This document shows, in pieces, positions 21,872 through 36,600 of a stretch of 49,864 nucleotides of DNA. The notes beneath the pieces are model-generated. The model saw only the letters and a program-made list of their open reading frames with translations. It was not told the DNA's origin and did no database searches. Source of the DNA: Solirubrobacterales bacterium (GTDB lineage: Bacteria; Actinomycetota; Thermoleophilia; Solirubrobacterales; 70-9). Location: NCBI GenBank assembly GCA_035549645.1, contig DASZQM010000209.1, positions 1 to 49,864 of the forward strand, given 5' to 3'. The translations under genes and the position numbers were made by a program. Each line of letters starts with the position of its first letter. Position 1 is the first letter of the stretch.

Positions 21872-23245
21872 TCAGTAGCCCGGGCTCGCCTTCATCTTGT
21901 GGCGCTCGCTCGGGTGGGCGCCGCCCTTGGCGTCGAGCGTTTCGCAGGCGGTCTCCAGGTCGCCCGCCAGGCGGTCGACGTGCTCGCGGCTGAGCGTCTG
22001 CTTGACCAGCGCCCGCAGCACTTTCACCTCTTCGGCGTTGGGCGGCATCGTGTAGGCGGGGAGCATCCAGCCGCGCTCGGCCGAGAGCTGCCAGGAGACG
22101 TCGAACTCGTCGTAGCTCTTGCCTTCGGCCAGCTTGAAGGCGACCAGCGGCAGCTGCTCTTTGTCGGCGCCGATCAGCTCGAAGTTGCCGCTCTCCTCGA
22201 GTTTCTCCGCCAGCGCCTTGGCGTTCAGCTCCATCGCCTTCATCACGTAGGCATAGCCCTTGCGGCCGAGGCGGACGAAGTTGTAGTACTGCGCCAACAC
22301 CATCGAGGCGCCGGTCGAGAAGTTGAGGGTGAAGGTGGCGTCGGTTTTGCCCAGGTAGTTCTCGTAGAAGACGAGGTCCTCGGCGAGGTCGGCTTTCTCG
22401 CGGAAGACGAGCCAGCCGATACCGGGGTAGACGAGGCCGAACTTGTGGCCGGAGACGTTGATCGAGCGCACCTGCTCGAGCCGAAAGTCCCACTCGGAGT
22501 CGGGGTAGAGGAAGGGCCAGACGAAGCCGCCCGAGGCGCCGTCGATGTGCAGCGGCACGTCGAGGCCCTTCTCGCCCTTCAGGTCGACCAGCAGCTCGTT
22601 GATGCCGACGATGTCGTCGGCGTGACCGGTGAAGGTGGTGCCGAGCACGGCGGCGACCCCGATCGTGTTCTCATCGACGTGAGGCTCGACGTCCTCGGGG
22701 CCGATCGTGTACTTGCCTTCCTGCAGCGGCACGATCCGCGGTTCGACGTCGAAATAGCGGCAGAACTTCTCCCAAACCACGTGCACGTCACCGCCAAAGA
22801 CCAGGTTCGGCTTGTCCGTCGCCTTCGATTCCTTCTCCCGCCGTTCCTTCCACTTCCACTTCAGCGAGAGCGCCCCCAGCATGATCGCCTCCGAGGACCC
22901 CTGAGTCCGGCACCCCGTCGTCTCCCCAGGAGCATTGAAGAGATCGGCCAGCATGCGGATGCACCGCTGCTCGATCTCCGCCGAGATCGGATACTCCGCA
23001 TGGTCGATGAAGTTCCGGTACAGGTTCTCGGCAATCAGCCGCTGCGCCTCCGGCTCCATCCAAGTGGTGACGAAGGTGGCGAGGTTCCGCCAAGGATCCC
23101 CCTCTAGAACCATTTCCTCGTCGACCAGCCGCATCGCGTCGAGAGCCGACATCCCGTCTTCGGGGAAAGGACCATCCGGTGCGTCTTCGATCAGGAAGCG
23201 ACTGCCGTAGAGCGCTGCCTCTTCGCCGGGCGTCGGGTTGCTCAC
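21872..23245 (-). CDS. gadB: Glutamate decarboxylase (PLP-dependent)
   Basis: INVSGHKFGLVYPGIGWLVFR contains the PLP-lysine motif. The overall length and N-terminal pattern are typical of GAD. Confidence 0.85.
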   Translation of the reverse strand: MSNPTPGEEAALYGSRFLIEDAPDGPFPEDGMSALDAMRLVDEEMVLEGDPWRNLATFVTTWMEPEAQRLIAENLYRNFIDHAEYPISAEIEQRCIRMLADLFNAPGETTGCRTQGSSEAIMLGALSLKWKWKERREKESKATDKPNLVFGGDVHVVWEKFCRYFDVEPRIVPLQEGKYTIGPEDVEPHVDENTIGVAAVLGTTFTGHADDIVGINELLVDLKGEKGLDVPLHIDGASGGFVWPFLYPDSEWDFRLEQVRSINVSGHKFGLVYPGIGWLVFREKADLAEDLVFYENYLGKTDATFTLNFSTGASMVLAQYYNFVRLGRKGYAYVMKAMELNAKALAEKLEESGNFELIGADKEQLPLVAFKLAEGKSYDEFDVSWQLSAERGWMLPAYTMPPNAEEVKVLRALVKQTLSREHVDRLAGDLETACETLDAKGGAHPSERHKMKASPGY

Positions 23246-23344: not shown

Positions 23345-24493
23345 TCATCCGCCGCGCAGCAGTTCGGTCCGTACCTGCCTGCGCTCGCGGCTGGCCTCGG
23401 CCGCTGTCTTGCTCGCACGGCGCTGGAGGTGAAGGACACCCAGGAGTGCGGCGAAGCTGAGCAGGATGAGCAGCGCGACCATCACCCAGAACCCCCAGTG
23501 CTTGCCCTGGCCGGGAACCCAGGTATTGGCTCCGTAGAAGCCGACCACCAGGGTCGGGACGAGGAAGACGGCAGCCGCGATCTCGATTCTCCGCTGCATT
23601 CGCTCGCTGTGTTCTCGCTGTTCCTCGCTTTGTTCGAGATGCAGCAGCCCGAAGGACTGGCGCAGCCGCTCACTCAGCTTGGCCAGGCCGGCGAGGGCTT
23701 TGTCGACGCGGTCGTCGACTTCGATCACCGCGGCATGGTCGCCTGCCGGTAGCCAGGCCTTCCCGAGGTCAGCCCGTAGGCCGGGGCGATTGAGCGGGTT
23801 GAGCCAGTCACGCATAACCGCCATCAGTCCCCAGAGCTCCGGCAGCTCGTCTCGGTTGTCCAGATCGTCATTGACGTAGAGGCTGAGCTCCCAGTCCTCC
23901 AGCCAGCTGAAGAGCGCTCTGTGTGCGGGCGCGTAGCTCAGCGCGAGCTCGTTCATGACGGCGACGCCGAGGTCACCAGGCCCGCCGCCGCGACGACGCG
24001 ACCAGCGTTCAGCCACCCCGTCGAATACCGCCTCGGCCGAATCGGGCTGATCTTCGTCGATCTTGATCGCGCCCTGGAACGTCCTGCCTGGGTGCCAGCA
24101 GCTGATCAGCCATCGCTCGCCGGCGAGCAGCTCGACCGGCTGAAATCGGAGGGCGCCGACTCCCTGCGCCGTGCCGCGCTCGCGCTGCTGATCGCGGCGG
24201 AGGGCCTCGATGGCGAACGTCGAGGCCAGGCGGATGGTCCCCCCTCCGTAGGAGATTCCGGCCGGCGCGTCGTCCGGCGTCAACAGGTCCTCCAGCATCT
24301 GTTTCGTCAACCCCGGGCAGTTCGTGGCGAGAAGATCAAAGGCCTCCTCGGTGAGGTCGGGGCCGCAGACGAGCTCAAACCAGCGAAACGCACCGTCGCC
24401 GAGCGGATCGTCGGGACTGCAGGCTTCGGGTCGAGCTCCGGCCTGCCAGGCACTCGTTCGCCGCAGCCAGTCGGGTGCGGAAGCCGCGCTCAT
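23345..24493 (-). CDS. CorA-like divalent-cation channel family protein with a variant signature (YGANTW instead of YGMNF)
   Basis: Large soluble N-domain plus two C-terminal TM helices flanking VGFYGANTW. The start overlaps the hxsC stop (ATGA). Confidence 0.65.
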   Translation of the reverse strand: MSAASAPDWLRRTSAWQAGARPEACSPDDPLGDGAFRWFELVCGPDLTEEAFDLLATNCPGLTKQMLEDLLTPDDAPAGISYGGGTIRLASTFAIEALRRDQQRERGTAQGVGALRFQPVELLAGERWLISCWHPGRTFQGAIKIDEDQPDSAEAVFDGVAERWSRRRGGGPGDLGVAVMNELALSYAPAHRALFSWLEDWELSLYVNDDLDNRDELPELWGLMAVMRDWLNPLNRPGLRADLGKAWLPAGDHAAVIEVDDRVDKALAGLAKLSERLRQSFGLLHLEQSEEQREHSERMQRRIEIAAAVFLVPTLVVGFYGANTWVPGQGKHWGFWVMVALLILLSFAALLGVLHLQRRASKTAAEASRERRQVRTELLRGG

Positions 24494-25680
24494 CCGAGGT
24501 TCAGCAGCGCCGGCTCACGTCCGGCGGCTTCGGTGGGGATTGCCTTGATCTTCTCGCTGACCTTGTATTTGGCCGAGAAGAAAAAGCCGCCGCACTCGTC
24601 CTTGACGCTGCATTCGATGCACTCCGGGTGGTACTCGTTCTTCCAGTCCGAGATCGACCTCACGGCGTAGGGCCACATGGCGCGCGGGAGCAGGCAGAGC
24701 TGGTGGTTGTAGATCATCGTGTGGATGCGGCTGCGATCAAGCAGCGTCACTGCCTCGGTGAGCTCGTCTGCGTAGTCGGTCGGGTCGATCCAGAGCTGAG
24801 GGATGTTGGCGCGAGCGAGCCCGATCATCTCCAGGCCCATCAATGCCACCTGATCGACGAAGGGCAGGTTACGAGCGATGAACTCGGCGATTTCAGGCAG
24901 CGCCGGAGCGGTCTGCTTGTGGAGCACGACGCGGATCTCGGTTCGCTGCCCCAACTGAGCGAGGTTGAGAATTCCGGGGATCGTCTGGTTGAAGGCGCCC
25001 TCGGCCTGGACGACATAGTCATGGCGGGCCGGCTCCGCTCCGTAGATCGGGATGCCGACCATCATGTTCGGGTTGTCGATCGAGGCCCAGGCGGCCGCGA
25101 ACTCGGGGTCTGCGAAGCGGGTGCCGTTGGAGAGGACGTGGACCTCTGCCTCCGGGTGCAGGTTGCGGCAGAGTCGCAGGAGGTCGATTACTCCCTGCCC
25201 GTAGAGGGTCGGCTCGCCGCCGGTAAAGCCGATCTCGGCGGTATCGCGCGGCAGCAGCCGCATCAGCTCGAAGGCCTCGGCCAGCAGGCGGTCGTCGTTG
25301 GCGGTCTTCGGCGGCTGCGAGCACATCAGGCAGTAGTGGTTGCAGCGCTCGGTCAAGAGGACGCTGTTCTGGCGGCTCTGGTTGCGCCAGAGCACCCGGA
25401 TTCGTTCACCGTCGTCGCTGACCGAGATGACGTCGTCACCGCTGAGATAGTCGAGCTCGGGTGGTAGGCGCAGGACAAACGCGCTGTCCAGACGGTTGGG
25501 CCCTTCGCTCCTCGTCAGGTAGAGATCAAACCCCTCCGGCGCCTGGTCCTCATCGCCGACGAGGAACGCGCGCGAGCCTCGCTGCGAGTTCAGCGTGTCG
25601 GCGTCGACGAGTCGCCAGACCGAGCGGGGCAGGGGCGCCTCGAAGGGAGCGCTCAACGCTTTGCCGCGCAGGGCGATCAA
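24490..25680 (-). CDS. hxsC: His-Xaa-Ser system radical SAM maturase HxsC
   Basis: CNHYCLMC (Cx3Cx2C) radical SAM cluster motif and a C-terminal Cys cluster (CIECSVKDEC). The position after hxsB is typical of Hxs loci. Confidence 0.8.
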   Translation of the reverse strand: MIALRGKALSAPFEAPLPRSVWRLVDADTLNSQRGSRAFLVGDEDQAPEGFDLYLTRSEGPNRLDSAFVLRLPPELDYLSGDDVISVSDDGERIRVLWRNQSRQNSVLLTERCNHYCLMCSQPPKTANDDRLLAEAFELMRLLPRDTAEIGFTGGEPTLYGQGVIDLLRLCRNLHPEAEVHVLSNGTRFADPEFAAAWASIDNPNMMVGIPIYGAEPARHDYVVQAEGAFNQTIPGILNLAQLGQRTEIRVVLHKQTAPALPEIAEFIARNLPFVDQVALMGLEMIGLARANIPQLWIDPTDYADELTEAVTLLDRSRIHTMIYNHQLCLLPRAMWPYAVRSISDWKNEYHPECIECSVKDECGGFFFSAKYKVSEKIKAIPTEAAGREPALLNLG

Positions 25681-27131
25681 TGTCCCGCCCAGGTCTGGAA
25701 CAAGGCCCGCGTAGTCGCGTCGCCTTCGTATCTCTCCAGCAGCAGCTTGAAGATCGCCATGTTGCGGCGGCAGAAGCCGGAGGTTGGCTTGCGGCCGAGG
25801 AAGTCACCGCTTGTGGCGTGGTGGTAGGTCGGGTCTGAGCCGCAGTAGGTCTCGAAGGCGCAGTCCTGGCACATCGGTGCGCTGGGGGCAAACGACTCCT
25901 CCAGGGGCGCCAATAGTGCCTCCGAGAGCATGATCTCCTCGTAGGAGTCGTCATGGAGGTTGCCGAGGCGGAAAGTCTTGTCGCCCATCTCCGCCAGCAT
26001 TCGCCCCTCGTCGGAGGCGTAGACGTCACCGTCGTAGTTGTAGACGATCGCCCCGATCCCGATGCCGGCCGGCGAGGTCAGGTCGACGTAGCCCGGGTCG
26101 TCGTTCGTGAGCATCTTCTTCAGGATCAGCGCTGCGTACTGCTCCACCATCGGAACGCCCCGCGCATTCAGTTCGATGATGTAGTCGAGCCCCTCCTCGT
26201 AGAAGGGAAGCCAGTGATCGACGTCGTACGCGTTGAAGCTCTTGGTTTTGATCGCGAAGCCGTAGGGAGAGAGCGTTCGCAGAAAGATGCTGGTCAGTCC
26301 CTGCTCGACATAGGCGTCGACGATCTCGCGGACCCGGCCGAGGCTCGAGCGCGTTGTCGTCATCAGAGCCGAGACGCGGTCGACGCCGAGCTCCTCACGC
26401 ACCCGTTGGATCCCCGCCGTCGCTAGCTCCCAGCTATTGCGCCCGGGCCGCGGGCGGTTCTTGTTGTGAAGGTCGGCGGGCCCGTCGAGCGAGGTGGAGA
26501 TGTAGACGTTGTGGGCGCGACAGAAGTCGAGCACCCTGTCGTCAAGGAGCGCCAGGTTGGTGGCGATCACGAAGCCGAGGTTCTTGTGCTCGGTTTCGTT
26601 ACGGGTCTCAGCGGCCTCTACGACTTCTTCGATCAACCCGAAGTTGAGCAGCGGCTCACCGCCCTGGAACTCGATCTTGATGTTCTGGGAGGGGGAGCGA
26701 AACGCCGAGTCCAGGGCTAGGGCCGCTGTCTCCGACCTCATGTCGAAGGCCTCGCGGTCTGAGCTCTGGCGCGATACCTGGCAATAGGGACAGGAATGCT
26801 CGCAGCGCAGCGAAGCGACGAGGATGTGCAGTGAGGTGAATTCCGCCAGCCGGCGATAGCGAGTGCGGGCCTTGATCGCGAGCAGTTCTACCGGTAGCTC
26901 GTCATCTTTCTCGCGGATCACGTGCTTGGCGCGAAGCCGCCGCACCAGCGGGGAATCGGTAGGCAGGTCGCTCGAGCCCAGTTGCTCGAACTCCTCGGCG
27001 CTCAGGAAGAGGTGCTCGCCGACGAGATTTGTCAGCAGGACCCTGCCGCGGATCCGCTCGAAGCGGAAGGGCAGCAGCTGCCAGTCGGCGCTCGCGGCTT
27101 GAAAGGCAGCCGGCTCACGAAACTTAGACAT
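25677..27131 (-). CDS. hxsB: His-Xaa-Ser system radical SAM maturase HxsB (radical SAM/SPASM)
   Basis: CEHSCPYC (Cx3Cx2C) motif and a C-terminal SPASM-like CQDCAFETYCGSD. Overlaps hxsD by 8 nt and hxsC by 4 nt. Confidence 0.85.
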   Translation of the reverse strand: MSKFREPAAFQAASADWQLLPFRFERIRGRVLLTNLVGEHLFLSAEEFEQLGSSDLPTDSPLVRRLRAKHVIREKDDELPVELLAIKARTRYRRLAEFTSLHILVASLRCEHSCPYCQVSRQSSDREAFDMRSETAALALDSAFRSPSQNIKIEFQGGEPLLNFGLIEEVVEAAETRNETEHKNLGFVIATNLALLDDRVLDFCRAHNVYISTSLDGPADLHNKNRPRPGRNSWELATAGIQRVREELGVDRVSALMTTTRSSLGRVREIVDAYVEQGLTSIFLRTLSPYGFAIKTKSFNAYDVDHWLPFYEEGLDYIIELNARGVPMVEQYAALILKKMLTNDDPGYVDLTSPAGIGIGAIVYNYDGDVYASDEGRMLAEMGDKTFRLGNLHDDSYEEIMLSEALLAPLEESFAPSAPMCQDCAFETYCGSDPTYHHATSGDFLGRKPTSGFCRRNMAIFKLLLERYEGDATTRALFQTWAGH

Positions 27132-27423
27132 CTGTCTCGATCAGGCCGGTCTTCGAGAAGGCGAGGGCGAGCACCAGGTTTCGGACGTCACTGGTTTCGG
27201 CTCGGATCCGCTCGCGCAGTACCTGGTCGAGCGCCTCGTTGCGGAAGTCATCGAGGACCGCCTCTGGCCTTTCAGTGCCGTCGGCGACGCGCACGTTCAC
27301 CTCGATCGCTTTCGCCCCCTCGGAGATGTCGCACGAGAGTCGGTCGGAGAACCGATACGCGGCGCGTTGGACCGCATCGAGGGAATACCCGGCGCGATCG
27401 AAGGAGAGTTTGGCCTCACTCAT
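27124..27423 (-). CDS. hxsD: His-Xaa-Ser system protein HxsD
   Basis: Small 99-aa acidic protein between hxsA and hxsB. Its size and position match the HxsD family model as I recall it. Confidence 0.7.
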   Translation of the reverse strand: MSEAKLSFDRAGYSLDAVQRAAYRFSDRLSCDISEGAKAIEVNVRVADGTERPEAVLDDFRNEALDQVLRERIRAETSDVRNLVLALAFSKTGLIETDV

Positions 27424-27456
27424 CTGCTGCGGGCGCCAAGCTGGGAATACCTGGCG

Positions 27457-27786
27457 TCAGGAGCTCGAGTAATGCGAAGAGTGCGAGGCATGAGAGGTGT
27501 GCGAGTAGTGCCCACCTCCACTGGAGGAGTAGTGCGAGTGATGGGAGTGGTGGGAATGGTGACTGTGATGGGAGTGGTGACGGGCACTTGCGGGGACTGC
27601 ATCGTCGTTTGGCAGGGCGAGGAGGGGAGCCTCGGCCGCTCCGGCGATGGGGCCGGCACTTCGAGTGATCGCCGCCTGCGCACGCCCGATGCTGAGGCCT
27701 GTATCAGCGGCTGTGGCGGTTGCGCCCTGGGGGAAGATCGCCGCCAGCGCTACTCCAAGCGGTACCAGTACCGGTCTCCGTTTCAT
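27457..27786 (-). CDS. hxsA: His-Xaa-Ser repeat precursor protein HxsA (signal peptide plus C-terminal HxS repeats)
   Basis: Signal peptide MKRRPVLVPLGVALAAIFPQGATATA. C-terminus HHSHHSHHSHHSHHSHYSSSGGGHYSHTSHASHSSHYSSS. Confidence 0.85.
   Translation of the reverse strand: MKRRPVLVPLGVALAAIFPQGATATAADTGLSIGRAQAAITRSAGPIAGAAEAPLLALPNDDAVPASARHHSHHSHHSHHSHHSHYSSSGGGHYSHTSHASHSSHYSSS
27460..27579 (-). repeat. Coding trinucleotide-period repeat encoding 11 His-Xaa-Ser triplets
   Basis: Read from the translation: HHS x5, HYS, an SSGGG spacer, then HYS HTS HAS HSS HYS. Confidence 0.85.
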
Positions 27787-27910
27787 CCAGCGGCGACCTT
27801 ATCCGTACCAATTGAGATATGTCAAGCACTGAAAGCTTTTCGTTCAGACGAGAGGCCGGAAATGCCGCCACCGCGGCAAGTCGTGGCGCGTTCAGTAAGA
27901 CTCCGCGCGG

Positions 27911-28198
27911 GTGTATCCGCGGTCGGCAAATCTCATCGCGTCCCGCTGGGCCCTCTCGGTCTTCGCGGTCGCCTCCTTCGTCGCTCTCCTCGCGGCGTCG
28001 ACGGCCCGGGCGGAAACGAGCGCCGACAGTGGCGTTCCGCCCGTGTGCGCCTCGCCTGACTACGACTACTGGGTGTCGCACGTCGGCGACTACGACGAAA
28101 GCATCGAAGGCAGCAGCAAAAGCGACATTCGCCTCCACGTCGACTACGAGACCGGGGTCGGCGCCTCGCTCGGCTGCGCCTTCCAGTCGCGGCAGTAA
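27911..28198 (+). CDS. Small secreted Cys-containing protein. It may be the N-terminal part of one larger gene interrupted by an in-frame TAA.
   Basis: Signal peptide (ALSVFAVASFVALLAASTARA). Same reading frame as 28208..28981, separated only by TAA (28196-28198) plus three codons. Confidence 0.5.
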   Translation: MYPRSANLIASRWALSVFAVASFVALLAASTARAETSADSGVPPVCASPDYDYWVSHVGDYDESIEGSSKSDIRLHVDYETGVGASLGCAFQSRQ

Positions 28199-28207
28199 GG
28201 GCATCAG

Positions 28208-28981
28208 GTGTGCACGGGGCCCGGTGGCGGGCCGCCATGCACGACCGCTTACGAGTACGTGCCGCACATCCCGGTGACGGCCTTTCCGGACACGATCGAC
28301 GCCGCCGGCGGCGATCACCAGAACGTCCACGTCAACGCTCCGGGGACGACCCTTGGATACGAAGAAAGCGGCGGCAGGGTGGGCTGGGGCTCGTGCTTCC
28401 CGGGCGTGACCTACGACCCCGGCTTCTGCAACCCGGCGCTGTTCAAGTTCGAAACGGGCGGGTTCCCCGTGGCCGGCGGCCAGATGCTCTATCGCTTTCG
28501 CGACGAGACCGGCCACTTCAGCGGCAGGTGGACGCTCTCCTACGGAACGCTGTCGCCGGGCTTCCGGCTGGAGCACACAGGCATGGCCCCGTGCGATCGC
28601 CTCGTCTCCTCCTGCGACTACGACGTGATCTTCAACCGCGACCCCCTCAACAAGCCGGCGGTCGGTCGCGACGCGCAAGTGCTGCTGCTCCTGCCCTCCG
28701 TCCACGCCGGCGTCTATCCGGAAGACGCCAGCCCTCCCGCAGCGGTCCCGCTGCTCGTCATCCAGTCGGCAGGCGGCGACGCCAGTGGCAACAACGGCAG
28801 CCCCGAAAGCGGCCCGGGCTCACTCACCGGAGCCATCGTCCCGCCGGTCACTGCCAGCCCTAAACCGCGCAAGCCCATCACTTGCAAGAAGGGCTTCAAG
28901 AAGACGAAGGTCAAAGGCAAGAGCAAGTGCGTGAAGGCGAAAAAGCGCCACAACAAAGGCGGGAAGAAAGCGCACCAATGA
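28208..28981 (+). CDS. Cys-rich protein with an extremely Lys-rich C-terminal tail. It has no signal peptide of its own.
   Basis: GTG start with an AGGG 6 nt upstream. Paired Cys residues throughout. Tail: KPRKPITCKKGFKKTKVKGKSKCVKAKKRHNKGGKKAHQ. Confidence 0.5.
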   Translation: MCTGPGGGPPCTTAYEYVPHIPVTAFPDTIDAAGGDHQNVHVNAPGTTLGYEESGGRVGWGSCFPGVTYDPGFCNPALFKFETGGFPVAGGQMLYRFRDETGHFSGRWTLSYGTLSPGFRLEHTGMAPCDRLVSSCDYDVIFNRDPLNKPAVGRDAQVLLLLPSVHAGVYPEDASPPAAVPLLVIQSAGGDASGNNGSPESGPGSLTGAIVPPVTASPKPRKPITCKKGFKKTKVKGKSKCVKAKKRHNKGGKKAHQ

Positions 28982-29025: not shown

Positions 29026-29067
29026 TGGAGCTAGGCGGATTCGAACCGCCGACCTCCTGGGTGCGAT
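29026..29067 (-). repeat. attL-type partial tRNA-Ala copy (3' 42 nt, anticodon loop to discriminator)
   Basis: 42/42 nt identical to 43724-43765, checked base by base. Identity stops on both sides. Confidence 0.9.
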
Positions 29068-29289
29068 GACTCGGCTCTGGCCGGGGATTCGGCGTTAGAA
29101 GGTGCTGATTAGCAGGGGATTCGCGTACGCGGCCCAGAGTCGCCGTCGGCGCGGATATGCACGGATTAGCGGGCATTGTCGGCGTTTCGGGCACTCCTGG
29201 CGCCGAGTGCCTCGGGATATTGCTGCCTTGTCGCTCGTGGCAATACGTTGCTGAGAAGCGCCGGGCGGAAGGCACGGTAGCTTTCCGGC

Positions 29290-30186
29290 GTGGCGAGCGT
29301 CTCCGAGCTGCTCTCGATCTTCGAATCGACTGAAGACCTTGAGAAGGCCGAGGACGCGCTCGGCCAGATCGCTGCGCTGGAGCGGCCAGCGGACCTCGAG
29401 CTCGGCGAGTGCTACGACGGACTCGCCGAGGTCGCGGCTGACGCGGGGGATCTCGAGCTTGCTGTCCGGGCGCAGCGACGCGCGCTCGAGTATGGCTGCC
29501 GGGAACCCAATCTGGCTAGGCAAATGCTTGGCTGGTACCTGCTCGAAGCCGGCGATCGCGAGGAGGGCGAGGCAGTTTTCGCCGCCGCCCGGGCCGAACG
29601 CCCCGACGATCCGTGGCTCCTCTCCGCGCTCGGTGCTGCGAGGAGGGGTTCCGGTGACGACCTGGGTGCCCTGAGCGCCCTCGACGAGGCGCTCGAGCTT
29701 GCGAAGGCCGGGAGCGATTCCGCCCTGACCCGACGGCTCAGGGCGGAACGCCTGGAATGCAGGGAGGACCAGAACCTGCCACCGGACGAGGACGACCGAC
29801 TCGCGGTGTCCGCCGAACCCGCCTTTCCGGACGCTGCCACCTACGCGGTGGCCTGGTACCCGCGCAACCAGATCGCAGCCGCCCTGGAGCGCTGGCCCTC
29901 GCTCGCCGGGGATCTGGAGGATCCGGACGCCTACTGCAGGATCATCGAGGCTCGCCTGCGCGAGGTGCGGAGTGCGACCGGCCAGGTGCCGTCGGTGGCG
30001 CCGCTCGAAGTCGATGCCTTGGTTCAGTTCGCCTCTGAGCACGGGTTGGATCCCGATTCCGGTTCCGCCAGGAGCCGTTTCGCGGCCGTTCTGGGCAGCC
30101 GCGGGGAGACCGTGCCCTGGCCACCCGGCAGGAACGAGCCGTGCTGGTGCGGCTCAGGACGCAAGTACAAGCGCTGCTGCGGCTGA
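29290..30186 (+). CDS. SEC-C motif protein with a TPR-like N-terminal region
   Basis: The C-terminus PGRNEPCWCGSGRKYKRCCG is the canonical SEC-C metal-binding motif. Confidence 0.75.
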   Translation: MASVSELLSIFESTEDLEKAEDALGQIAALERPADLELGECYDGLAEVAADAGDLELAVRAQRRALEYGCREPNLARQMLGWYLLEAGDREEGEAVFAAARAERPDDPWLLSALGAARRGSGDDLGALSALDEALELAKAGSDSALTRRLRAERLECREDQNLPPDEDDRLAVSAEPAFPDAATYAVAWYPRNQIAAALERWPSLAGDLEDPDAYCRIIEARLREVRSATGQVPSVAPLEVDALVQFASEHGLDPDSGSARSRFAAVLGSRGETVPWPPGRNEPCWCGSGRKYKRCCG

Positions 30187-30260
30187 ATAAGAGAGGCGGG
30201 GCTTGGCGGTACTAACCGGCCGGCTCGGCGCGCGTCGGGGCGGCTTGAACTTCGACTGAC

Positions 30261-30836
30261 TCAACCTCGCCTTCCGCGACCCCGAGCAATCCCCGACTCG
30301 CGGCGAAGCGCGCTCGCCTGGCGCTTGGTCAAGCGATCGCCCTCCTCGCCTTGGTCGATCGCCTGTCCGACGAGCGCCGTCCCCAGGTGCGTCTTGTGCG
30401 CCTGGCGGATCGCATGCACCGGAGTGACGATCGCGATTCCCTCGTGCTGGGTGATCTGAGCTGCTCCCAAATCCTCGTGGTGCAGCATGTAGGCCAATGG
30501 CACGCTGCGCCGGACGCGGTGGCTGCGGGGGAGGGTGATGTGAATCTTCGCCGGGTGGACATCGCTCAGCTCATAGAGCTCCAGCGCCGTCTCGTGGGAG
30601 AGGACGCCGTGCGCCCCACGCGGCCAGAGCGTCGCCTCCATGTAAGGGTCAAGACGGCTCGCCGGTGTAAGGGGGAGGCGGTACAGACCCGTCCCGCGGC
30701 GCTCGATCTGCCCTCGCTCGGCCATGCGCACGAGGGCCATCGGGCTGATGCCCAACTCCCGCGCGTCGTCTGGCGTCACGAAGCCATACCGCTCATTGGC
30801 GACCTCGGCCAGCTGCGTGTAGGCACGTCCGGGCAT
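30261..30836 (-). CDS. AbiEi-like (type IV TA antitoxin family) transcriptional regulator
   Basis: N-terminal GFVTPDDARELGISPMALVRMAERGQIERRGTGLYRL is the AbiEi_4-type wHTH pattern. Confidence 0.7.
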   Translation of the reverse strand: MPGRAYTQLAEVANERYGFVTPDDARELGISPMALVRMAERGQIERRGTGLYRLPLTPASRLDPYMEATLWPRGAHGVLSHETALELYELSDVHPAKIHITLPRSHRVRRSVPLAYMLHHEDLGAAQITQHEGIAIVTPVHAIRQAHKTHLGTALVGQAIDQGEEGDRLTKRQASALRRESGIARGRGRRG

Positions 30837-30966
30837 GTGGACAAATTAGCACAAAATATGCTAATTCATCCCGAAACGTCTTGGTTGCGCTGTCGCGCGA
30901 AACTAAAGCCATGCTTGATCTACCTCTGACGCGGCTGTCTCAGGTCCGCGAAACCAAAGCTATACT

Positions 30967-31564
30967 TTGGCTATGCATGACCGACCCGACATGCGGGGAC
31001 TTGAGGCGACCGCCTACTCCCAGCACGGCTACTTCACCACGAGCCAGGCCCGTGAGCGTGGACTCAGCAGCCAGCTTCTGAGTCACTACGTGCGCGGGAA
31101 CCGGTTCGAGCGGGTGCGGCGCGGGCTCTATCGCCTACCCGGCTTTCCTCGCCCGGAAGACGACGAGATGCGGGAGAAGTGGATGGCGGTTGGCGCCGAG
31201 AAGGCCGTTCTCTCGCACCAAAGCGCGCTCGCCCTGCTCGATCTCAGCGACAACATTCCCAATGCGGTCCACCTGCTCCTCGGACGTAGATACCGCGGCC
31301 TGCGCCGTCCGGCCGGCGTCGTCATCCACACCCGCCCCGACGAGGAAGAGGTCAACACTGTCTGGCGCGAAGGGCTCCGCCTAACCTCACCGGCGCGAAC
31401 GCTCGTCGACGTAGCCGGGGAAATTCAGCCCGAGCAACTGGAGATGGCCGTGCGGGCAGGCACTCGGTCGCGGGCTGCTCACGGCGCGGGAACTCGAAGC
31501 CGAGGCACGACGGCGCGGTCGCCACGACGCACTGAGCGGTGTCCTCGCGGCGGTGACATCGTGA
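30967..31564 (+). pseudogene. AbiEi-like paralogue with a probable +1 frameshift near 31453-31457
   Basis: The N-terminal GYFTTSQARERGLSSQLLSHYVRGNRFERVRRGLYRLPGFP is AbiEi-like. After ~31455 the track frame turns into Arg/Ser/Thr-rich junk. The +1 frame instead reads QALGRGLLTARELEAEARRRGRHDALSGVLAAVTS and stops at 31562-31564. Confidence 0.6.
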
Positions 31565-31635
31565 GATACGAGAGCGCTGCCGCGTTTCGCAGGAGCATGA
31601 GCTCAGCGCCTTAGGTAGGGGTAGGATTCCGCCTA

Positions 31636-32217
31636 ATGGGACTGTTTGGTACACGGGATTCACGGCAAGCCGCCGAAACTTCGGCAGAACCAAAGCCGAT
31701 CAGTCCAGACGAGGTTCAGCTTGACGTGCTGCGCGATGTCGTTATGAGTCTTTGCTCGGCCATCGGAACGAGCAACCCACAGATCGACGCAGCCATCGCT
31801 CATCTGCGTACAGCATGTGGAATGGTCGACCCCGACAAGGCCATGGCGACGATGGGCGCCTACGACGCAGACCCAGGATACTTCGACCGCCCGGGACGCT
31901 GGCTGGCTGTTGGTGCGGCAAAGGCCAACGCGAGTGACCAGCCGGATCTCGCAGTTCTGGCATATGCGTGGATCTTTATGTGGACAACAAGCATGGAGCC
32001 CAAGTTGTCGGGCAGTAACCTGATTGTTCTAGGTCTGAATCGGACACCTAGAGATGCCGTGGAGGCATTGATCGCACAAGCAGAGATTGCCCTGCCACGG
32101 ATAGATCCCGATCAGGTGCTCGTGACAACTGGTACGCCTGAAGAGCTAACGGGTCGAATGATCGGAGCGGCACTGGAGCAGCACAAGGTTTCCCTTCAGG
32201 GCACGCCGAGCGCCTAG
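31636..32217 (+). CDS. Hypothetical protein
   Basis: Protein-like composition with lower G+C codon usage than the core genome. No family recognised. Confidence 0.5.
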   Translation: MGLFGTRDSRQAAETSAEPKPISPDEVQLDVLRDVVMSLCSAIGTSNPQIDAAIAHLRTACGMVDPDKAMATMGAYDADPGYFDRPGRWLAVGAAKANASDQPDLAVLAYAWIFMWTTSMEPKLSGSNLIVLGLNRTPRDAVEALIAQAEIALPRIDPDQVLVTTGTPEELTGRMIGAALEQHKVSLQGTPSA

Positions 32218-32302
32218 GACCCCCGAGCACAAGCCAGCCGCGATTTGAGCGTGATCAATCGCGACTCACCGCATCCCCCGGCGAACGGGGTACGGTTCGG
32301 GC

Positions 32303-33241
32303 GTGCGTTACCGTCTCTCACTGCCGGAAAGCAATGGCGCCGAGGCAGTGCGTGGCTTCATCGACGATTGGATCGAGCAGCCAGCCCTGCGGCGGATCGT
32401 AGAGGCCGAGGGTGGGCAATGGCCATTAGGCTCACTTGAGCAGAGGGTCGATGCGCTACATGACTTCAGCGCTCGCTGGGACTTCCGTGGCGGCGTCGAG
32501 CGATTGGAGATCAACCCTTCCTCTAGTCAGGACCGCGACGAGAACCTGCTCACGGACGCGGCCGAGTTGGGAATGACGGCTGCCGATCGTCCGACTGACG
32601 ACCGATATGACCACGCGCTTGTCCTTGGGGGTACCGCCTTGGCCAGCGTCTACCGTCTGCGGCGGCTTTACGAACTGCGAGAGGACGGACTCGACATAGG
32701 CCGGACGGCAGTGCTGACCGCCCTGCGTGAAATCGGCGAGCCAGAGCTGCGGATCGTTCGCGAACGCCCCGAGATCGCAGCGGTCGTTGACCGTTCGCCG
32801 CGCACGGAGTTCGAAGTGATGACGCATTCGGTTGAGTTGTTCAGCGGATCTAGTTCTGAGGTGGAGCGCACGCCGAACGAAAACCCCCACCTGGCGTCGG
32901 CGATGGCGCGGCTCGGCGACGTGCTCGTGCTCGCCGCACCGTCAGCCGATCCTGGTCGCCGCGCGAATAGCCGTGATAACTACGACGCTTACATTGGCCA
33001 GATTGGCCCAGTGGATTCGGTTCTTGTCGTGACCAGCAGCATCTATCTGCCGTATCAGTTTTTCGTGGCCTTGCAAGCCCTTGGTTGGGAGCAGCCTCGC
33101 ACCATCGAGGCTGTCGGTTTCCCGCCCGAATGGATGCAAGGAATCCTTACTGGCCCTCAGAACATCCTTCAGGAGATCCGCAGCGCCCTTTTCGGAGCGC
33201 GCAACACACTGCAAGTACTGGCGGCCTCCGAGCCCAGGTAG
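32303..33241 (+). CDS. Hypothetical protein
   Basis: Protein-like composition over 312 aa. No family recognised with confidence. Confidence 0.5.
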   Translation: MRYRLSLPESNGAEAVRGFIDDWIEQPALRRIVEAEGGQWPLGSLEQRVDALHDFSARWDFRGGVERLEINPSSSQDRDENLLTDAAELGMTAADRPTDDRYDHALVLGGTALASVYRLRRLYELREDGLDIGRTAVLTALREIGEPELRIVRERPEIAAVVDRSPRTEFEVMTHSVELFSGSSSEVERTPNENPHLASAMARLGDVLVLAAPSADPGRRANSRDNYDAYIGQIGPVDSVLVVTSSIYLPYQFFVALQALGWEQPRTIEAVGFPPEWMQGILTGPQNILQEIRSALFGARNTLQVLAASEPR

Positions 33242-33243
33242 GT

Positions 33244-33960
33244 CTACCGACGCAAGCGGCGCTCGGCACCCCGTACCTTTCGCCGCAGCTTCCACTCGCC
33301 GTACCGTGCTCTCAACCCTATCGAGTTCGGCTCGTTCGCGAAACCGCCGTGCGTGCTTACCCCACTTCCGTCGGTGTGCAAGAGCACAAGGCGAGCCTCA
33401 CCATCTCTTCGAGCTGCCGGGCGCTTGAGGGAGAGCTCGCGCCCCCGGTGCTTCGGATGGTGCAGATGGTAGGAGATGCTGGCGTTGTAGAGGTCGACGA
33501 GACGGTAGCCAAAGCGGGCCTGCGGGCGCCCCTTTACCGGAGCATTTTCCCGCTCGAGGTATGGCAACAGAAGCGTTCCTACCCTGACGAAAATAGTGTG
33601 GTACTGCTGTAGCGCGCTGCGCAGTGCCAAGCCGTCAACGACGTATTGCGCTACGTCGTTCATTGCGCCGACCACGACCCTCGCATCGCGCTTTTGCTCG
33701 GCGCTCAGTTCGTCGAGCTCCTTCCACGTATCGAAATCGTCGTGTCCCGCCTGGGGTGCCAGCTGTTCCACCACGGATACGTGAATGGGAAAGCTCATCT
33801 GCAATCGGCTTCGTGCCTCCTGGGAGCGCACAAACGCCGCCTGAAATTGGATCGTCGCCTGCGCACGGGAGGCAGCGGTAGCAGCGCGCAGCTGCAAAAT
33901 GACGAATCCCACCCCGATCGCCGCGATCACGGCACTTGCGATCCCCATCCAGTCAGCCAT
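33244..33960 (-). CDS. Hypothetical membrane-anchored protein (one N-terminal TM helix)
   Basis: WMGIASAVIAAIGVGFVILQL looks like a TM helix, followed by a soluble domain. It lies 9 nt downstream of the SIR2-TPR gene on the same strand. Confidence 0.55.
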   Translation of the reverse strand: MADWMGIASAVIAAIGVGFVILQLRAATAASRAQATIQFQAAFVRSQEARSRLQMSFPIHVSVVEQLAPQAGHDDFDTWKELDELSAEQKRDARVVVGAMNDVAQYVVDGLALRSALQQYHTIFVRVGTLLLPYLERENAPVKGRPQARFGYRLVDLYNASISYHLHHPKHRGRELSLKRPAARRDGEARLVLLHTDGSGVSTHGGFANEPNSIGLRARYGEWKLRRKVRGAERRLRR

Positions 33961-33969
33961 CCTCGGAGC

Positions 33970-36093: not shown

Positions 36094-36171
36094 CGTAAAG
36101 AGACGGCCATACTCGTGAGCGGCCTTGGTGGCCCCCAGAGAGCGCCGAGCCTCGACATCGAGTGGCCGGGC

Positions 36172-36600
36172 TCAGTCGTTCAGCTCAAGTAGCTCGCATG
36201 CGGCCCGTGCGTTGATCGCCGGCGGCTTCAGCTCCTTGTTGTGATCGAGCAGGTCCTTGTCGCCGGTGACGATGGCCTCGGCCTGCGCCTCCCGAGCCAG
36301 GGCGGGAAGGTAGTCGTCCTTGGGGTCACGCAGCTCAGGGGGAACGTCGGGTGGGTCGTCAAAGGAGATGGCGATCTCCTCGATGCGAGCCACGGCCCTG
36401 CGCGCCTCGGTTGCCGTGACGCGTTCGCGGAAGTAGGGCTTGCGCAGAGCCTTGTTCACCTCGCGGAGAATCTCCGGGCAGATCGCTATCTCGAAGCGCA
36501 TTGCCTGCATCGCGCGAATGAGCTGGGCGGGCGGCGAGCCCGACCGGATCCCCGCAATCCCCGACACGAGCGTGTTGGGGTCGAGGACGAGTCGCTTCAA
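36172..36600 (-). CDS. PIN-domain toxin (VapC-like)
   Basis: LVLDPNTLVS (first acidic residue) and IVTGDKDLL (C-terminal acidic motif). 4-nt overlap with the upstream small gene. Confidence 0.8.
   Translation of the reverse strand: MKRLVLDPNTLVSGIAGIRSGSPPAQLIRAMQAMRFEIAICPEILREVNKALRKPYFRERVTATEARRAVARIEEIAISFDDPPDVPPELRDPKDDYLPALAREAQAEAIVTGDKDLLDHNKELKPPAINARAACELLELND

What the first reader, a model, noticed from the sequence alone, without database searches (positions are those of the whole stretch)
24490..27786. Complete His-Xaa-Ser (HxsABCD) radical-SAM peptide system
A signal-peptide precursor ends in 11 His-Xaa-Ser triplets. It is followed, with overlapping stops and starts, by a small acidic protein and two radical SAM enzymes. 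One has Cx3Cx2C plus a SPASM-like Cys cluster and the other has its own Cx3Cx2C. This matches the four-gene Hxs system. To my knowledge that system is defined only by comparative genomics (family models named HxsA-HxsD), with no established chemistry or physiological role. The exported His/Ser-rich substrate suggests a modified metal-binding peptide or protein.
Basis: partly seen in the sequence, partly recalled or inferred. Interest (0 to 1): 0.8.

Follow-up and report, generated by a model that had tools for sequence, protein, structure and literature searches.

The report
Divergent actinobacterial His-Xaa-Ser (HXS) operon
This is a real His-Xaa-Ser radical-SAM operon, a family shown in 2026 to be an anti-phage defence in E. 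coli, but here in a soil actinobacterium as an unannotated variant with a doubled His/Ser repeat peptide and an extra CorA-like channel gene.

Summary
On the minus strand lie hxsA (27457-27786; signal peptide plus 11 HxS triplets in two blocks), hxsD, hxsB and hxsC.

HxsB, HxsC and HxsD score above NCBIfam trusted cut-offs (609/370, 390/268, 62/50 bits). The precursor fails all four HxsA models (best 24 bits against a cut-off of 48). Its 55 database relatives are all called "hypothetical protein".

The claim that the system has no known role is out of date. Li et al. 2026 (PMC13128918) showed that the E. coli HXS system blocks phage DNA entry through a radical-SAM-matured periplasmic HxsA.

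The window's system is a distant relative of that one (HxsB 32%, HxsC 39% identity). It comes from Solirubrobacterales and has the gene order A-D-B-C. Its precursor has no peptidoglycan-binding domain and almost no basic residues. CorA-like and "X186" accessory genes are present in only some relatives.

Most likely reading: cytoplasmic maturation of the HxS array by HxsB/C/D, Sec export, then an envelope-level anti-phage role (about 0.5). A metal-handling role is the main rival (about 0.2).

Verdict: new variant of a known kind, moderate interest.

The parts
27796..27825 (-). Promoter-like element: TTGACA (27820-27825), 18-nt spacer, TAAGGT (27796-27801). The hxsA ATG follows 9 nt after the -10 hexamer, so the mRNA is probably leaderless or nearly so.
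   Evidence: Sequence read. In an alignment of 10 Solirubrobacterales loci (A2), CTTGACA, TAnnnT and the start codon are the only conserved upstream elements. The consensus scan did not flag it because the -10 matches only 3 of 6. Promoter function is inferred.
27457..27786 (-). hxsA: 109-aa precursor made of a signal peptide, a linker and a bipartite HxS array.
   Evidence: It lies below the cut-offs of all four NCBIfam HxsA models. All 55 homologues are named 'hypothetical protein'.
27715..27786 (-). Sec-type signal peptide, residues 1-24 (MKRR, hydrophobic core, A-T-A).
   Evidence: Read from the sequence and from the alignment with orthologues, which have AQA|K at the same place. The cleavage site is assigned by the -3/-1 rule only; no predictor was run.
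27607..27627 (-). Conserved PLLALPN box (residues 54-60), a candidate recognition element for the maturases.
   Evidence: Invariant in the 15 closest orthologues. The recognition role is inferred.
27526..27579 (-). HxS block 1 (residues 70-87): HHS x5 and HYS, followed by SSGGG.
   Evidence: The 'SSSGGG' after the array is also present in Klebsiella HxsA.
27466..27510 (-). HxS block 2 (residues 93-107): HYS HTS HAS HSS HYS, followed by SS and the stop codon.
27124..27423 (-). hxsD: small acidic partner protein.
   Evidence: TIGR03976 61.8 bits (cut-off 50). In a multiple alignment Y23, D66 and R70 fall in the same columns as Klebsiella Y24, D59 and R63; I equate these with the E. coli residues Y23, D61 and R65 that were shown to matter, although the E. 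coli sequence itself was not aligned. The AF2 model has pLDDT 90.3.
25677..27131 (-). hxsB: radical SAM enzyme with one four-Cys auxiliary-cluster motif (abbreviated SPASM).
   Evidence: TIGR03978 608.8 bits (cut-off 370). Pfam Radical_SAM matches; SPASM scores 19.1 bits, just below its cut-off. Cysteines 110/114/117 and 421/424/430/454 are invariant, including in Klebsiella.
24490..25680 (-). hxsC: radical SAM enzyme with an N-terminal extension and a C-terminal four-Cys motif.
   Evidence: TIGR03977 389.5 bits (cut-off 267.9). Cysteines 113/117/120 and 329/354/357/363 are invariant.
23345..24493 (-). CorA-superfamily membrane protein with G-A-N in place of G-M-N. Its start overlaps the hxsC stop by 4 nt. 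It is a facultative accessory gene.
   Evidence: Pfam CorA 49.5 bits (cut-off 27). The CorA and ZntB equivalog models are far below cut-off. 'FYGAN' is invariant in 7 orthologues. The gene is linked to hxs in 8 of 14 informative related genome loci, but is not next to hxs in about 14 of 27 metagenome loci that hold close relatives of it.

Best explanation
This is a genuine His-Xaa-Ser (Hxs/HXS) radical-SAM maturation operon of the A-D-B-C architecture. The gene order is that of the NCBIfam 'HxsA2' type, and the host is a Solirubrobacterales (Thermoleophilia) bacterium.

Proposed mechanism:
1. A conserved sigma-70-type promoter drives a nearly leaderless hxsA. hxsD, hxsB, hxsC and the CorA-like gene are translationally coupled. 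(Gene layout shown; promoter function inferred.)
2. In the cytoplasm the two radical SAM enzymes HxsB and HxsC, each with a radical-SAM cluster motif and one four-Cys auxiliary motif, act with HxsD to modify His/Ser residues of the HxS array. The conserved PLLALPN box is probably the recognition element. (Inferred by homology to E. coli, where HxsC binds HxsD and a +8 Da change maps to the last repeat, SHRSS. The window has two equivalent terminal repeats, SHYSSS.)
3. The product is exported by its Sec signal peptide and released, or held in the wall, as an approximately 85-residue His/Ser-rich peptide. (Inferred.)
4. Function: most likely an envelope-level block to phage genome entry, as shown for E. 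coli HXS.

My probabilities: identity as an Hxs system about 0.95; cytoplasmic maturation followed by export about 0.8; anti-phage role about 0.5.
For: - HxsB, HxsC and HxsD score above trusted cut-offs.
- All radical-SAM and auxiliary cysteines are invariant between the window, seven to eight related loci and the Klebsiella proteins. By position they match the pairs mutated in E. coli (C98/C101 and C399/C402 in HxsB; C105/C108 and C342/C345 in HxsC).
- HxsD Y23, D66 and R70 align with Klebsiella Y24, D59 and R63, taken here as the equivalents of the E. coli residues Y23, D61 and R65.
- The precursor has a signal peptide and an HxS array followed by SSSGGG, as in Klebsiella HxsA.
- The A-D-B-C module is conserved in the 76 of 80 GTDB loci that are complete enough to judge.
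- The module moves as a unit. Flanks are not syntenic even among close relatives, and transposase, integrase and Replic_Relax genes recur nearby.
- Bona fide defence genes occur in the flanks of related loci: DarT/DarG, type IIG RM, PDC-S01, PDC-S14, Mokosh-like and CapH/CapP.
- A temperate Leptospira phage carries a complete A-D-B-C hxs operon.
- Experimental anti-phage function has been shown for the family (PMC13128918).
Against: - No A-D-B-C or HxsA2-type system has been tested experimentally.
- The characterised system is distant: HxsB 32% and HxsC 39% identity, and HxsD gives no BLASTP hit.
- HxsA here lacks the PG_binding_1 domain that is required in E. coli.
- From general knowledge, not tested here, the host is a Gram-positive-type actinobacterium without a periplasm.
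- The array has one Arg and no Lys, and the mature peptide is about neutral at pH 7. The electrostatic DNA-binding model proposed for the Arg-rich E. coli repeats therefore fits poorly.
- The flank survey had no background control, and the flanks are heterogeneous.
- The AbiEi and SIR2 genes nearby belong to a separate integrative element.
- In fluorescent Pseudomonas the operon sits in a conserved context among genes that look like core metabolic ones, an aldehyde-dehydrogenase-like and a hydroxyacid-dehydrogenase-like ORF judged by eye from their sequences and not searched against family models.
Confidence: 0.55

Rival explanations
1. Metal-handling system. The exported, modified poly-His/Ser peptide binds Zn, Ni, Cu or Co outside the membrane as a buffer, chaperone or metallophore-like peptide. 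It works with the co-translated CorA-family channel.
For: - Block 1 is (HHS)5, effectively a natural His-tag, with 16 His in 41 residues.
- A CorA-superfamily gene overlaps the hxsC stop. It recurs next to hxs in 8 of 14 informative related genome loci and in 5 metagenome loci.
- The nearest solved relative of that gene is the zinc transporter ZntB.
- Two of 22 related loci have CDF (Cation_efflux/ZT_dimer) neighbours.
Against: - The CorA-like gene is facultative. It is absent from L003, L007, L010, L012, L014, L021, the sister clade L015-L022 and all proteobacterial loci.
- About 14 of 27 metagenome loci holding its close relatives have no hxs gene beside it, and in five it follows a PADLOC PDC-S06 ATPase.
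- The GMN selectivity motif is replaced by GAN, so metal transport itself is unproven.
- No conserved operator or metal-regulator box lies upstream of hxsA.
- There is no recurring metal-related neighbour.
- Two radical SAM enzymes are not needed for His to bind metal.
- The only experiment on the family points to phage defence.
Confidence: 0.2
2. Secreted RiPP natural product, such as a bacteriocin or signalling peptide. The HxS array is cross-linked, for example by three-residue His-to-Ser cyclophane or ether links, and the product acts on other cells.
For: - The architecture of a short precursor plus radical SAM/SPASM-like maturases is typical of RiPPs.
- After the Hxs model, HxsB's next best models are peptide maturases (PapB 103 bits, nif11 99 bits, YhhB 77 bits).
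- H-x-S fits the aromatic-X-X three-residue pattern used by cyclophane-forming enzymes. That pattern is from my own knowledge and was not tested here.
Against: - Scores for all characterised maturase families are far below their cut-offs.
- No leader peptidase, peptidase-domain ABC exporter or immunity gene recurs in the neighbourhood.
- Export is by a Sec signal peptide.
- In the sister clade the precursor has a lipobox (A-A-C-G), so it is tethered to the producing cell rather than released.
- The E. coli homologue is a cell-bound effector.
Confidence: 0.1
3. The HxS ORF is a chance low-complexity reading frame and the radical SAM genes act on something else.
For: None found. HxsA does fall below all of the HxsA HMM cut-offs.
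Against: - It is the only outlier among 677 six-frame segments (11 triplets against a maximum of 2), and synonymous codon changes outnumber non-synonymous ones 41 to 19.
- An HxS-array ORF with an N-terminal signal peptide sits directly upstream of hxsD in the 76 of 80 loci complete enough to judge.
- The promoter and start codon are conserved.
Confidence: 0.01

Closest known systems
E. coli / Klebsiella HXS anti-phage system (HxsD-B-C-A; Li et al., Nat Commun 2026, PMC13128918; Klebsiella plasmid copy read here as L081)
   Same: - The same four protein families are present.
- The radical-SAM and auxiliary Cys motifs in HxsB and HxsC are the same.
- The HxsD residues Y, D and R are conserved.
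- HxsA has a signal peptide and an HxS array ending in H-x-S-S-S-G-G-G.
- All genes lie in one operon.
   Different: - Identity is low: HxsB 32%, HxsC 39%, and HxsD gives no BLASTP hit.
- The gene order is A-D-B-C rather than D-B-C-A (99.6% of the systems surveyed in the paper).
- HxsA is 109 aa rather than 211 aa. It has no Ser-rich linker and no PG_binding_1 domain.
- It has 11 repeats in two blocks rather than 5.
- The X positions are His, Tyr, Thr, Ala or Ser rather than Arg or Ser.
- The host is an actinobacterium.
- There is an extra CorA-like gene.
HxsA2-type Hxs systems (NCBIfam NF038296) of Pseudomonas, Limnohabitans, Polynucleobacter, Methylotenera and others; uncharacterised
   Same: - The gene order is A-D-B-C.
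- The precursor is about 85-110 aa with a signal peptide and a C-terminal HxS array.
- These are the closest enzymes outside the window's own clade: HxsB mostly 54-63% and HxsC 46-57% identical.
   Different: - The window's HxsA scores 24.2 bits against a cut-off of 48, whereas three of the five small HxsAs tested from outside Solirubrobacterales score 75-113.
- The leader box is PLLALPN rather than FxFVLKR...MAYH.
- The array is bipartite with 10-13 repeats and a GGG hinge, rather than a single run of 5-9.
- CorA-like and X186 accessory genes occur only in the Solirubrobacterales clade.
- A class-I SAM methyltransferase neighbour occurs in 13 non-Solirubrobacterales loci and is absent here.
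hxs operon of the temperate Leptospira phage vB_LnoZ_CZ214-LE1 (KF114877)
   Same: It has the A-D-B-C order and a 99-aa HxsA. HxsB is 45.5% identical over 99% of its length.
   Different: It is carried by a phage. It has a single Arg-rich array (HRSHSSHRSHSSHRSSHRTS) and no CorA-like gene.
Radical SAM/SPASM peptide maturases (PapB ranthipeptide, three-residue cyclophane enzymes XyeB/GrrM/FxsB/YhhB, anaerobic sulfatase maturase)
   Same: They share a radical SAM core and a C-terminal Cys-rich auxiliary-cluster domain, and they act on a ribosomal peptide. H-x-S resembles the three-residue aromatic-X-X motif.
   Different: - All these models score far below their cut-offs: 35.8-103 bits against cut-offs of 310-450.
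- There are only 4 auxiliary cysteines, so one cluster rather than a full SPASM domain.
- The core peptide has no Cys.
- The modification reported in E. coli is +8 Da, not the -2 Da expected of a single cross-link.
CorA / ZntB divalent-cation channels, and the CorA-like effectors listed among defence proteins in PADLOC
   Same: It has the Pfam CorA domain, two C-terminal TM helices and the loop motif position.
   Different: - GAN replaces GMN (GVN in the aligned E. coli ZntB).
- The N-terminal domain is not detectably related to solved CorA or ZntB structures.
- Equivalog models score 18.8/200.75 and 26.8/292 bits.
- The PADLOC CorA model scores only 18 bits.

Membership tests
His-Xaa-Ser (Hxs/HXS) system | HxsB radical SAM maturase (TIGR03978, trusted cut-off 370 bits) | tested here: met
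   608.8 bits, with full-length coverage of profile positions 1-466.
His-Xaa-Ser (Hxs/HXS) system | HxsC radical SAM maturase (TIGR03977, cut-off 267.9 bits) | tested here: met
   389.5 bits.
His-Xaa-Ser (Hxs/HXS) system | HxsD small partner protein (TIGR03976, cut-off 50 bits) with the functional Y and D/R residues | tested here: met
   61.8 bits. Y23, D66 and R70 align with Klebsiella Y24, D59 and R63, taken as the equivalents of E. coli Y23, D61 and R65. The 120 listed homologues (of 415) that carry a source name are named HxsD.
His-Xaa-Ser (Hxs/HXS) system | Precursor recognised by an HxsA model (TIGR03979, NF038296, NF038309 or NF038313) | tested here: not met
   Best score is HxsA2 at 24.2 bits against a cut-off of 48. 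The others score 16.7-18.4 bits against cut-offs of 55-121.65. The L001 and L019 orthologues also fail.
His-Xaa-Ser (Hxs/HXS) system | Precursor with a signal peptide and tandem His-Xaa-Ser repeats, encoded in the same operon | tested here: met
   11 HxS triplets, an N-terminal signal peptide, and a 33-nt gap to hxsD.
His-Xaa-Ser (Hxs/HXS) system | Both enzymes carry CxxxCxxC plus a second Fe-S Cys motif | tested here: met
   Invariant cysteines listed. By position they correspond to the residues mutated in E. coli.
E. coli-type HXS defence system (Li et al. 2026) | HxsA carries a peptidoglycan-binding domain required for activity | tested here: not met
   There is no Pfam hit on the window's HxsA, whereas Klebsiella HxsA hits PG_binding_1 at 25.5 bits. 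The window protein ends directly after the repeats.
E. coli-type HXS defence system (Li et al. 2026) | Gene order hxsD-B-C-A | tested here: not met
   The order is A-D-B-C.
E. coli-type HXS defence system (Li et al. 2026) | Protection against phage by blocking DNA entry; +8 Da modification of the last HxS repeat | not testable with these tools
   This needs phage challenge and LC-HRMS. Only the motif equivalents (SHYSSS, twice) can be pointed to.
HxsA2-type subfamily (NF038296) | Small signal-peptide precursor upstream of hxsD that scores at least 48 bits | tested here: not met
   The architecture and gene order match, but the score is 24.2 bits. Three of the five small HxsAs tested from outside Solirubrobacterales score 75-113; the other two score 35.9 and 42.5.
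   78.8 bits. HxsB is not an anSME.
Three-residue cyclophane (triceptide) maturases XyeB/GrrM/FxsB/YhhB | Family HMM above cut-off (310-450 bits) | tested here: not met
   Scores of 35.8-77 bits. The resemblance is limited to the aromatic-X-X periodicity of the substrate.
CorA/ZntB metal-ion transporters (for the fifth gene) | CorA fold with a G-M-N (or ZntB G-V/I-N) selectivity loop; equivalog HMM above cut-off | tested here: inconclusive
   The Pfam CorA domain is met at 49.5 bits (cut-off 27). The motif is G-A-N and invariant. TIGR00383 scores 18.8/200.75 and the ZntB model 26.8/292. The PDB profile match covers only the TM region, E = 0.0017.

The most novel reading that the evidence does not exclude
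In this actinobacterial lineage the Hxs module may have been re-tooled into something mechanistically different from the peptidoglycan-anchored periplasmic 'gatekeeper' of E. coli. The product would be a free peptide, or in the sister clade a lipid-anchored one, that is almost free of basic residues and carries a doubled poly-His/Ser array. Its positive charge or activity would depend on bound metal ions or low pH. It would work with a GAN-motif CorA-family channel and an unknown membrane protein (X186). The role would be either a metal-charged envelope barrier to phage DNA in a cell without a periplasm, or a true metal-handling system.
Probability: 0.2. Interest if true: 0.7.

Novelty: new variant of a known kind. 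Interest (0 to 1): 0.4.

Why it matters
The only functional study of HXS surveyed the system through E. coli-like HxsA. It concluded that HXS is 99.7% proteobacterial, 99.6% D-B-C-A in gene order, and acts through a peptidoglycan-anchored periplasmic effector.

This locus and the 80 related loci fetched here point to a second, large A-D-B-C branch with short precursors that lack an anchoring domain. By the record titles of the genome contigs, that branch is found in Actinomycetota, Acidobacteriota, Nitrospirota, Cyanobacteriota, a Gemmataceae MAG and a Flavobacteriales MAG, and in a Leptospira phage.

In the Solirubrobacterales clade the precursor is invisible to current annotation models; every relative is labelled "hypothetical protein".

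If this branch is also anti-phage, the mechanism cannot depend on a periplasm, a PG-binding domain or Arg-rich repeats. That would narrow what the radical-SAM modification and the HxS array actually do. If it is not anti-phage, the family has more than one function.

The doubled array, with two "terminal" SHYSSS motifs, is also a convenient substrate for working out the unresolved +8 Da chemistry.

Tried and rejected
- **Exact-sequence look-up of HxsB.** Not on record, so the source genome was inferred from relatives only. The closest is L001, a Solirubrobacterales MAG, at 89-92% identity.
- **Defence island argument from the window's own neighbours.** Two AbiEi genes, a SIR2_2 protein and a PNP_UDP_1 protein looked supportive. 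However, a perfect 42-bp direct repeat (29026-29067 and 43724-43765, the latter being the 3' end of tRNA-Ala) shows they belong to a separate 14.7-kb integrative element. I rejected them as evidence about hxs.
- **HxsD as an RRE/PqqD-like leader-binding domain.** The AF2 model is confident (pLDDT 90.3). Foldseek against the PDB gives nothing at E < 0.01, and the best matches are Pcc1-like small alpha/beta adaptors with TM 0.45-0.56. There is no support for an RRE fold.
- **Metal-regulator box or other operator upstream of hxsA.** Only the -35, the -10 and the start codon are conserved. The AAAGCTTT palindrome in the window is not conserved.
- **Attenuator hairpin between hxsA and hxsD.** An 8-bp stem exists, but the z-score is only -1.43. 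No intrinsic terminator was found after the operon.
- **CorA-like gene as an obligate hxs partner.** Rejected, because about 14 of 27 metagenome loci that hold close relatives of it have no hxs gene beside it.
- **Glutamate decarboxylase (21872-23245) as part of the operon.** It lies 99 nt downstream on the same strand but is not found next to hxs in any of 22 related loci.
- **Recurrent functional neighbours in the flanks.** A Pfam scan of 138 flank ORFs found no family in more than 3 ORFs. The PADLOC scan found about ten defence-type proteins, but without a background control.
- **Finding the E. coli operon by megablast with an enterobacterial MAG locus.** No match. I used a Klebsiella plasmid copy instead.
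- **PADLOC-DB v2 (2023) on the Hxs proteins.** It holds no Hxs models. HxsB and HxsC give only weak viperin hits of 22-33 bits.

Full report
**1. What is there**

The minus strand of the window carries five tightly packed genes:
- hxsA, 27457-27786, 109 aa
- hxsD, 27124-27423, 99 aa
- hxsB, 25677-27131, 484 aa
- hxsC, 24490-25680, 396 aa, TTG start
- a CorA-like gene, 23345-24493, 382 aa

The junctions D/B (8 nt), B/C (4 nt) and C/CorA-like (4 nt) overlap. A 33-nt spacer separates hxsA from hxsD.

HxsA begins with a Sec-type signal peptide (MKRR, a hydrophobic core, then A-T-A). It continues with a linker that contains an invariant PLLALPN box. It ends in two blocks of His-Xaa-Ser triplets: residues 70-87 (HHS x5, HYS) and 93-107 (HYS HTS HAS HSS HYS), joined by SSGGG.

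The 11 triplets are not a chance product:
- The next best of 677 six-frame segments in the window has 2 triplets.
- Shuffling the His/Ser-rich tail reaches 11 in only 0.16% of trials.
- Against the closest orthologue, synonymous codon changes outnumber non-synonymous ones 41 to 19.
- At the DNA level the 9-nt repeat is degenerate, with 68-70% matches.

**2. Family membership**

| Protein | NCBIfam model | Score (bits) | Cut-off (bits) |
|---|---|---|---|
| HxsB | TIGR03978 | 608.8 | 370 |
| HxsC | TIGR03977 | 389.5 | 267.9 |
| HxsD | TIGR03976 | 61.8 | 50 |
| HxsB | anaerobic sulfatase maturase | 78.8 | 349 |
| HxsB | PapB and cyclophane-forming families | 36-103 | 310-450 |

The enzymes therefore belong to the Hxs families and to no other characterised family.

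Both enzymes have CxxxCxxC plus a separate invariant four-Cys motif. In HxsB these are C110/114/117 and C421/424/430/454. In HxsC they are C113/117/120 and C329/354/357/363.

The precursor scores below the cut-off of all four HxsA models; the best is HxsA2 at 24.2 bits against 48. Three of the five small HxsAs tested from outside Solirubrobacterales pass that model with 75-113 bits, while the L001 and L019 orthologues of the window also fail. A search of 5.8 billion proteins found 55 relatives of this precursor. None has a Pfam domain, and every one that carries a name is called "hypothetical protein". The HxsD relatives that carry a source name, by contrast, are named HxsD.

**3. What is known**

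Their findings for the E. coli HXS operon (order D-B-C-A) are:
- It restricts 110 of 113 coliphages by blocking genome entry.
- All four genes are needed.
- HxsA is 214 aa, with a signal peptide, five HxS repeats and a peptidoglycan-binding domain. It is processed, carries a +8 Da (+C -4H type) modification mapped to the last repeat (SHRSS), and acts in the periplasm.
- HxsC binds HxsD.
- Cys mutations in both clusters of both enzymes, and Y23 or D61/R65 mutations in HxsD, impair the system.
- The chemistry itself remains unresolved.

A full-text search found no other functional study.

**4. How this locus relates to the characterised system**

I read a Klebsiella plasmid copy of the enterobacterial system (L081). 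Compared with it:
- HxsB is 32% identical and HxsC 39% identical. HxsD is not detectable by BLASTP.
- In a multiple alignment, HxsD Y23, D66 and R70 fall in the same columns as Klebsiella Y24, D59 and R63. I take these to be the equivalents of the residues mutated in E. coli; the E. coli sequence itself was not aligned.
- Klebsiella HxsA reads HRSHSSHRSHSSHRSSSGGG, then a Ser-rich linker, then PG_binding_1.
- The window's HxsA shares the "H-x-S-S-S-G-G-G" ending of the array. It then repeats a second array and stops, with no anchoring domain.
- It has one Arg and no Lys in the core. The predicted mature peptide has a net charge of about 0 at pH 7 and about +11 at pH 5.5. The electrostatic DNA-binding idea proposed for the Arg-rich E. 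coli repeats therefore does not transfer directly.

**5. Relatives elsewhere**

A scan of one genome per GTDB species with HxsC returned 80 loci.
- L001-L022 carry HxsC at 65-89% identity; by their record titles they are Solirubrobacterales or related actinobacterial MAGs, except L006, which is labelled Dormiibacterota. This places the window in that order.
- The remainder are 46-57% identical. They are mostly Pseudomonadota, with some Acidobacteriota, Nitrospirota, Cyanobacteriota, Planctomycetota and Bacteroidota.
- In all but four truncated or degraded loci (L037, L041, L053, L076), an ORF of roughly 80-175 aa with a signal peptide and a C-terminal HxS run lies directly upstream of hxsD-B-C. 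The order is therefore A-D-B-C, not the D-B-C-A order reported for 99.6% of E. coli-type systems.
- The Solirubrobacterales clade has the bipartite array.
- In the sister clade (L015-L018, L020) the signal peptide ends in a lipobox (A-A-C-G). There the array is probably lipid-anchored to the cell surface.
- A temperate Leptospira phage (KF114877) carries a complete A-D-B-C operon.

**6. Accessory genes**

The CorA-like gene has a Pfam CorA domain, but its loop motif is an invariant G-A-N in place of G-M-N. It matches solved ZntB and CorA structures only over the TM region.
- It follows hxsC in 8 of 14 informative close genome loci and in 5 metagenome loci. A sixth metagenome locus keeps a remnant of hxsC.
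- About 14 of 27 metagenome loci that hold close relatives of it have no hxs gene beside it. In five of them it sits just downstream of an 862-aa AAA_13 ATPase that matches the PADLOC candidate system PDC-S06 at 487 bits.
- It is therefore a facultative companion, and its presence is not a safe indicator of a metal function.

A second accessory gene, "X186", encodes about 186 aa with what looks by eye like an N-terminal membrane-spanning segment (not run through a predictor) and no Pfam match. It accompanies hxs in 11 of 14 close loci but is absent from the window.

**7. Context**

Only the A-D-B-C module, with or without CorA-like and X186, is shared among related genomes. The flanks are not syntenic.

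Upstream of hxsA, the only conserved non-coding features are CTTGACA, an 18-nt spacer, TAnnnT, and a start codon 8-9 nt after the -10 hexamer. This suggests a sigma-70-type promoter with a leaderless-like transcript and no conserved operator.

The AbiEi pair, SIR2_2 protein, Replic_Relax protein, tyrosine integrase and PNP_UDP_1 protein to the right of the operon lie between perfect 42-bp direct repeats: 29026-29067 and the 3' end of tRNA-Ala at 43724-43765. They form a separate integrative element and say nothing directly about hxs.

I also scanned 138 flank ORFs from the 22 related loci:
- PADLOC found DarT/DarG, type IIG RM (twice), PDC-S01, PDC-S14, Mokosh-like and CapH/CapP proteins.
- Pfam showed no family recurring more than three times. 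CDF cation-efflux genes occur in two loci, and mobile-element genes in several.
- Without a background control this is only suggestive.

**8. HxsD fold**

An AlphaFold2 model built from 46 homologues is confident (pLDDT 90.3). It has a beta-alpha-beta-beta topology followed by one long helix. Foldseek against the PDB gave no match at E < 0.01. The weak hits are Pcc1-like adaptors, not PqqD/RRE domains. HxsD looks like a small adaptor of its own kind, which is consistent with the reported HxsC-HxsD complex.

**9. Most likely mechanism**

Shown here:
- the gene set
- the family membership of the three processing proteins
- conservation of all experimentally important residues
- a conserved, exported HxS-array precursor
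- modular mobility of the operon

Inferred by homology: HxsB, HxsC and HxsD modify the array in the cytoplasm. The peptide is then exported and acts at the envelope.

Function is the weakest step. I put about 0.5 on an anti-phage entry block. The reasons are that the family's only tested member does this, that a phage carries a copy, that some flanks hold defence genes, and that the module is mobile. I put about 0.2 on a metal-related role. The reasons are the (HHS)5 block, the CorA-like gene and occasional CDF neighbours. About 0.1 goes to a diffusible RiPP, and the remainder to something not yet described.

**10. Verdict**

This is a new variant of a known kind. Its distinguishing features are an unmodelled bipartite precursor class, an actinobacterial host, no anchoring domain, and facultative CorA-like and X186 partners.

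Interest is moderate at 0.4. The system is no longer an orphan. This branch nevertheless challenges how general the published "peptidoglycan-anchored periplasmic gatekeeper" model is, and it offers a clean substrate for resolving the modification chemistry.

Noticed in passing
window 29026-43796: A 14.7-kb integrative element is bounded by a perfect 42-bp direct repeat (29026-29067 and 43724-43765, the latter being the 3' end of tRNA-Ala(cgc) at 43724-43796, minus strand). It carries a SEC-C/TPR protein, two AbiEi-like genes, a SIR2_2 protein of 707 aa, a Replic_Relax protein, a tyrosine integrase and a PNP_UDP_1-domain protein. Its GC content is lower than the surroundings (0.61-0.65). It looks like a mobile defence island inserted 1.2 kb from hxsA.
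   Followed up: partly
window 30261-30836 (-) and 30967-31614 (+), with 31636-33241 (+): Two divergently oriented AbiEi antitoxin-like genes are present (PADLOC AbiEi 190 bits for the first). The downstream ORFs (193 aa and 312 aa) have no Pfam or PADLOC match, so no recognisable AbiEii toxin was found.
   Followed up: partly
L091, L096, L098, L101, L108 (for example L108:4220-8143): Close relatives of the GAN-motif CorA-like protein (57-64% identity) sit directly downstream of an 862-aa AAA_13 ATPase that matches the PADLOC candidate defence system PDC-S06 (487 bits). This raises the possibility that this CorA subfamily is a membrane effector that travels with different defence modules.
   Followed up: partly
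L001:10378-10884, L021:9216-9776 and 9 other Solirubrobacterales loci: 'X186' is a protein of about 170-190 aa with what looks like an N-terminal membrane-spanning segment and no Pfam or PADLOC match. It is encoded directly after hxsC or after the CorA-like gene in 11 of 14 close relatives. It is absent from the window.
   Followed up: partly
L015-L018, L020 (hxsA upstream of hxsD): The sister-clade HxsA precursors have a lipobox (…A-A-C-G…) in place of a type-I cleavage site, and in L016, L017 and L020 (and L022, whose signal peptide was not recovered) a long Glu/Lys/Arg-rich spacer before the HxS array. This implies a lipid-anchored version of the effector.
   Followed up: no
L032, L041, L042, L053-L056, L062, L065, L069, L070, L074, L079 (for example L053:2552-3091): A class-I SAM methyltransferase of about 180 aa (Pfam Methyltransf_25) lies next to hxs in 13 loci outside Solirubrobacterales (mostly proteobacterial and acidobacterial by their record titles). 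It is a possible extra tailoring enzyme, given the reported '+C' component of the E. coli modification.
   Followed up: no
L035, L039, L071, L078, L079: Some loci encode two tandem hxsA precursor genes upstream of hxsD.
   Followed up: no
window 21872-23245 (-): A glutamate decarboxylase-like PLP enzyme (Pyridoxal_deC, 214 bits) lies 99 nt downstream of the CorA-like gene on the same strand, with no predicted terminator between them. It is not linked to hxs in any related locus.
   Followed up: partly
window 27911-28981 (+): Two adjacent ORFs (95 aa with a signal-peptide-like N-terminus; 257 aa ending in a Lys-rich tail) lie between hxsA and the attL repeat. They have no Pfam or PADLOC match and no counterpart in related loci.
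   Followed up: no
L088:3041-3172: A 44-codon remnant of hxsC (62% identical to residues 272-316) lies just upstream of a CorA-like gene. This suggests decay of an hxs operon with retention of the CorA-like gene.
   Followed up: no
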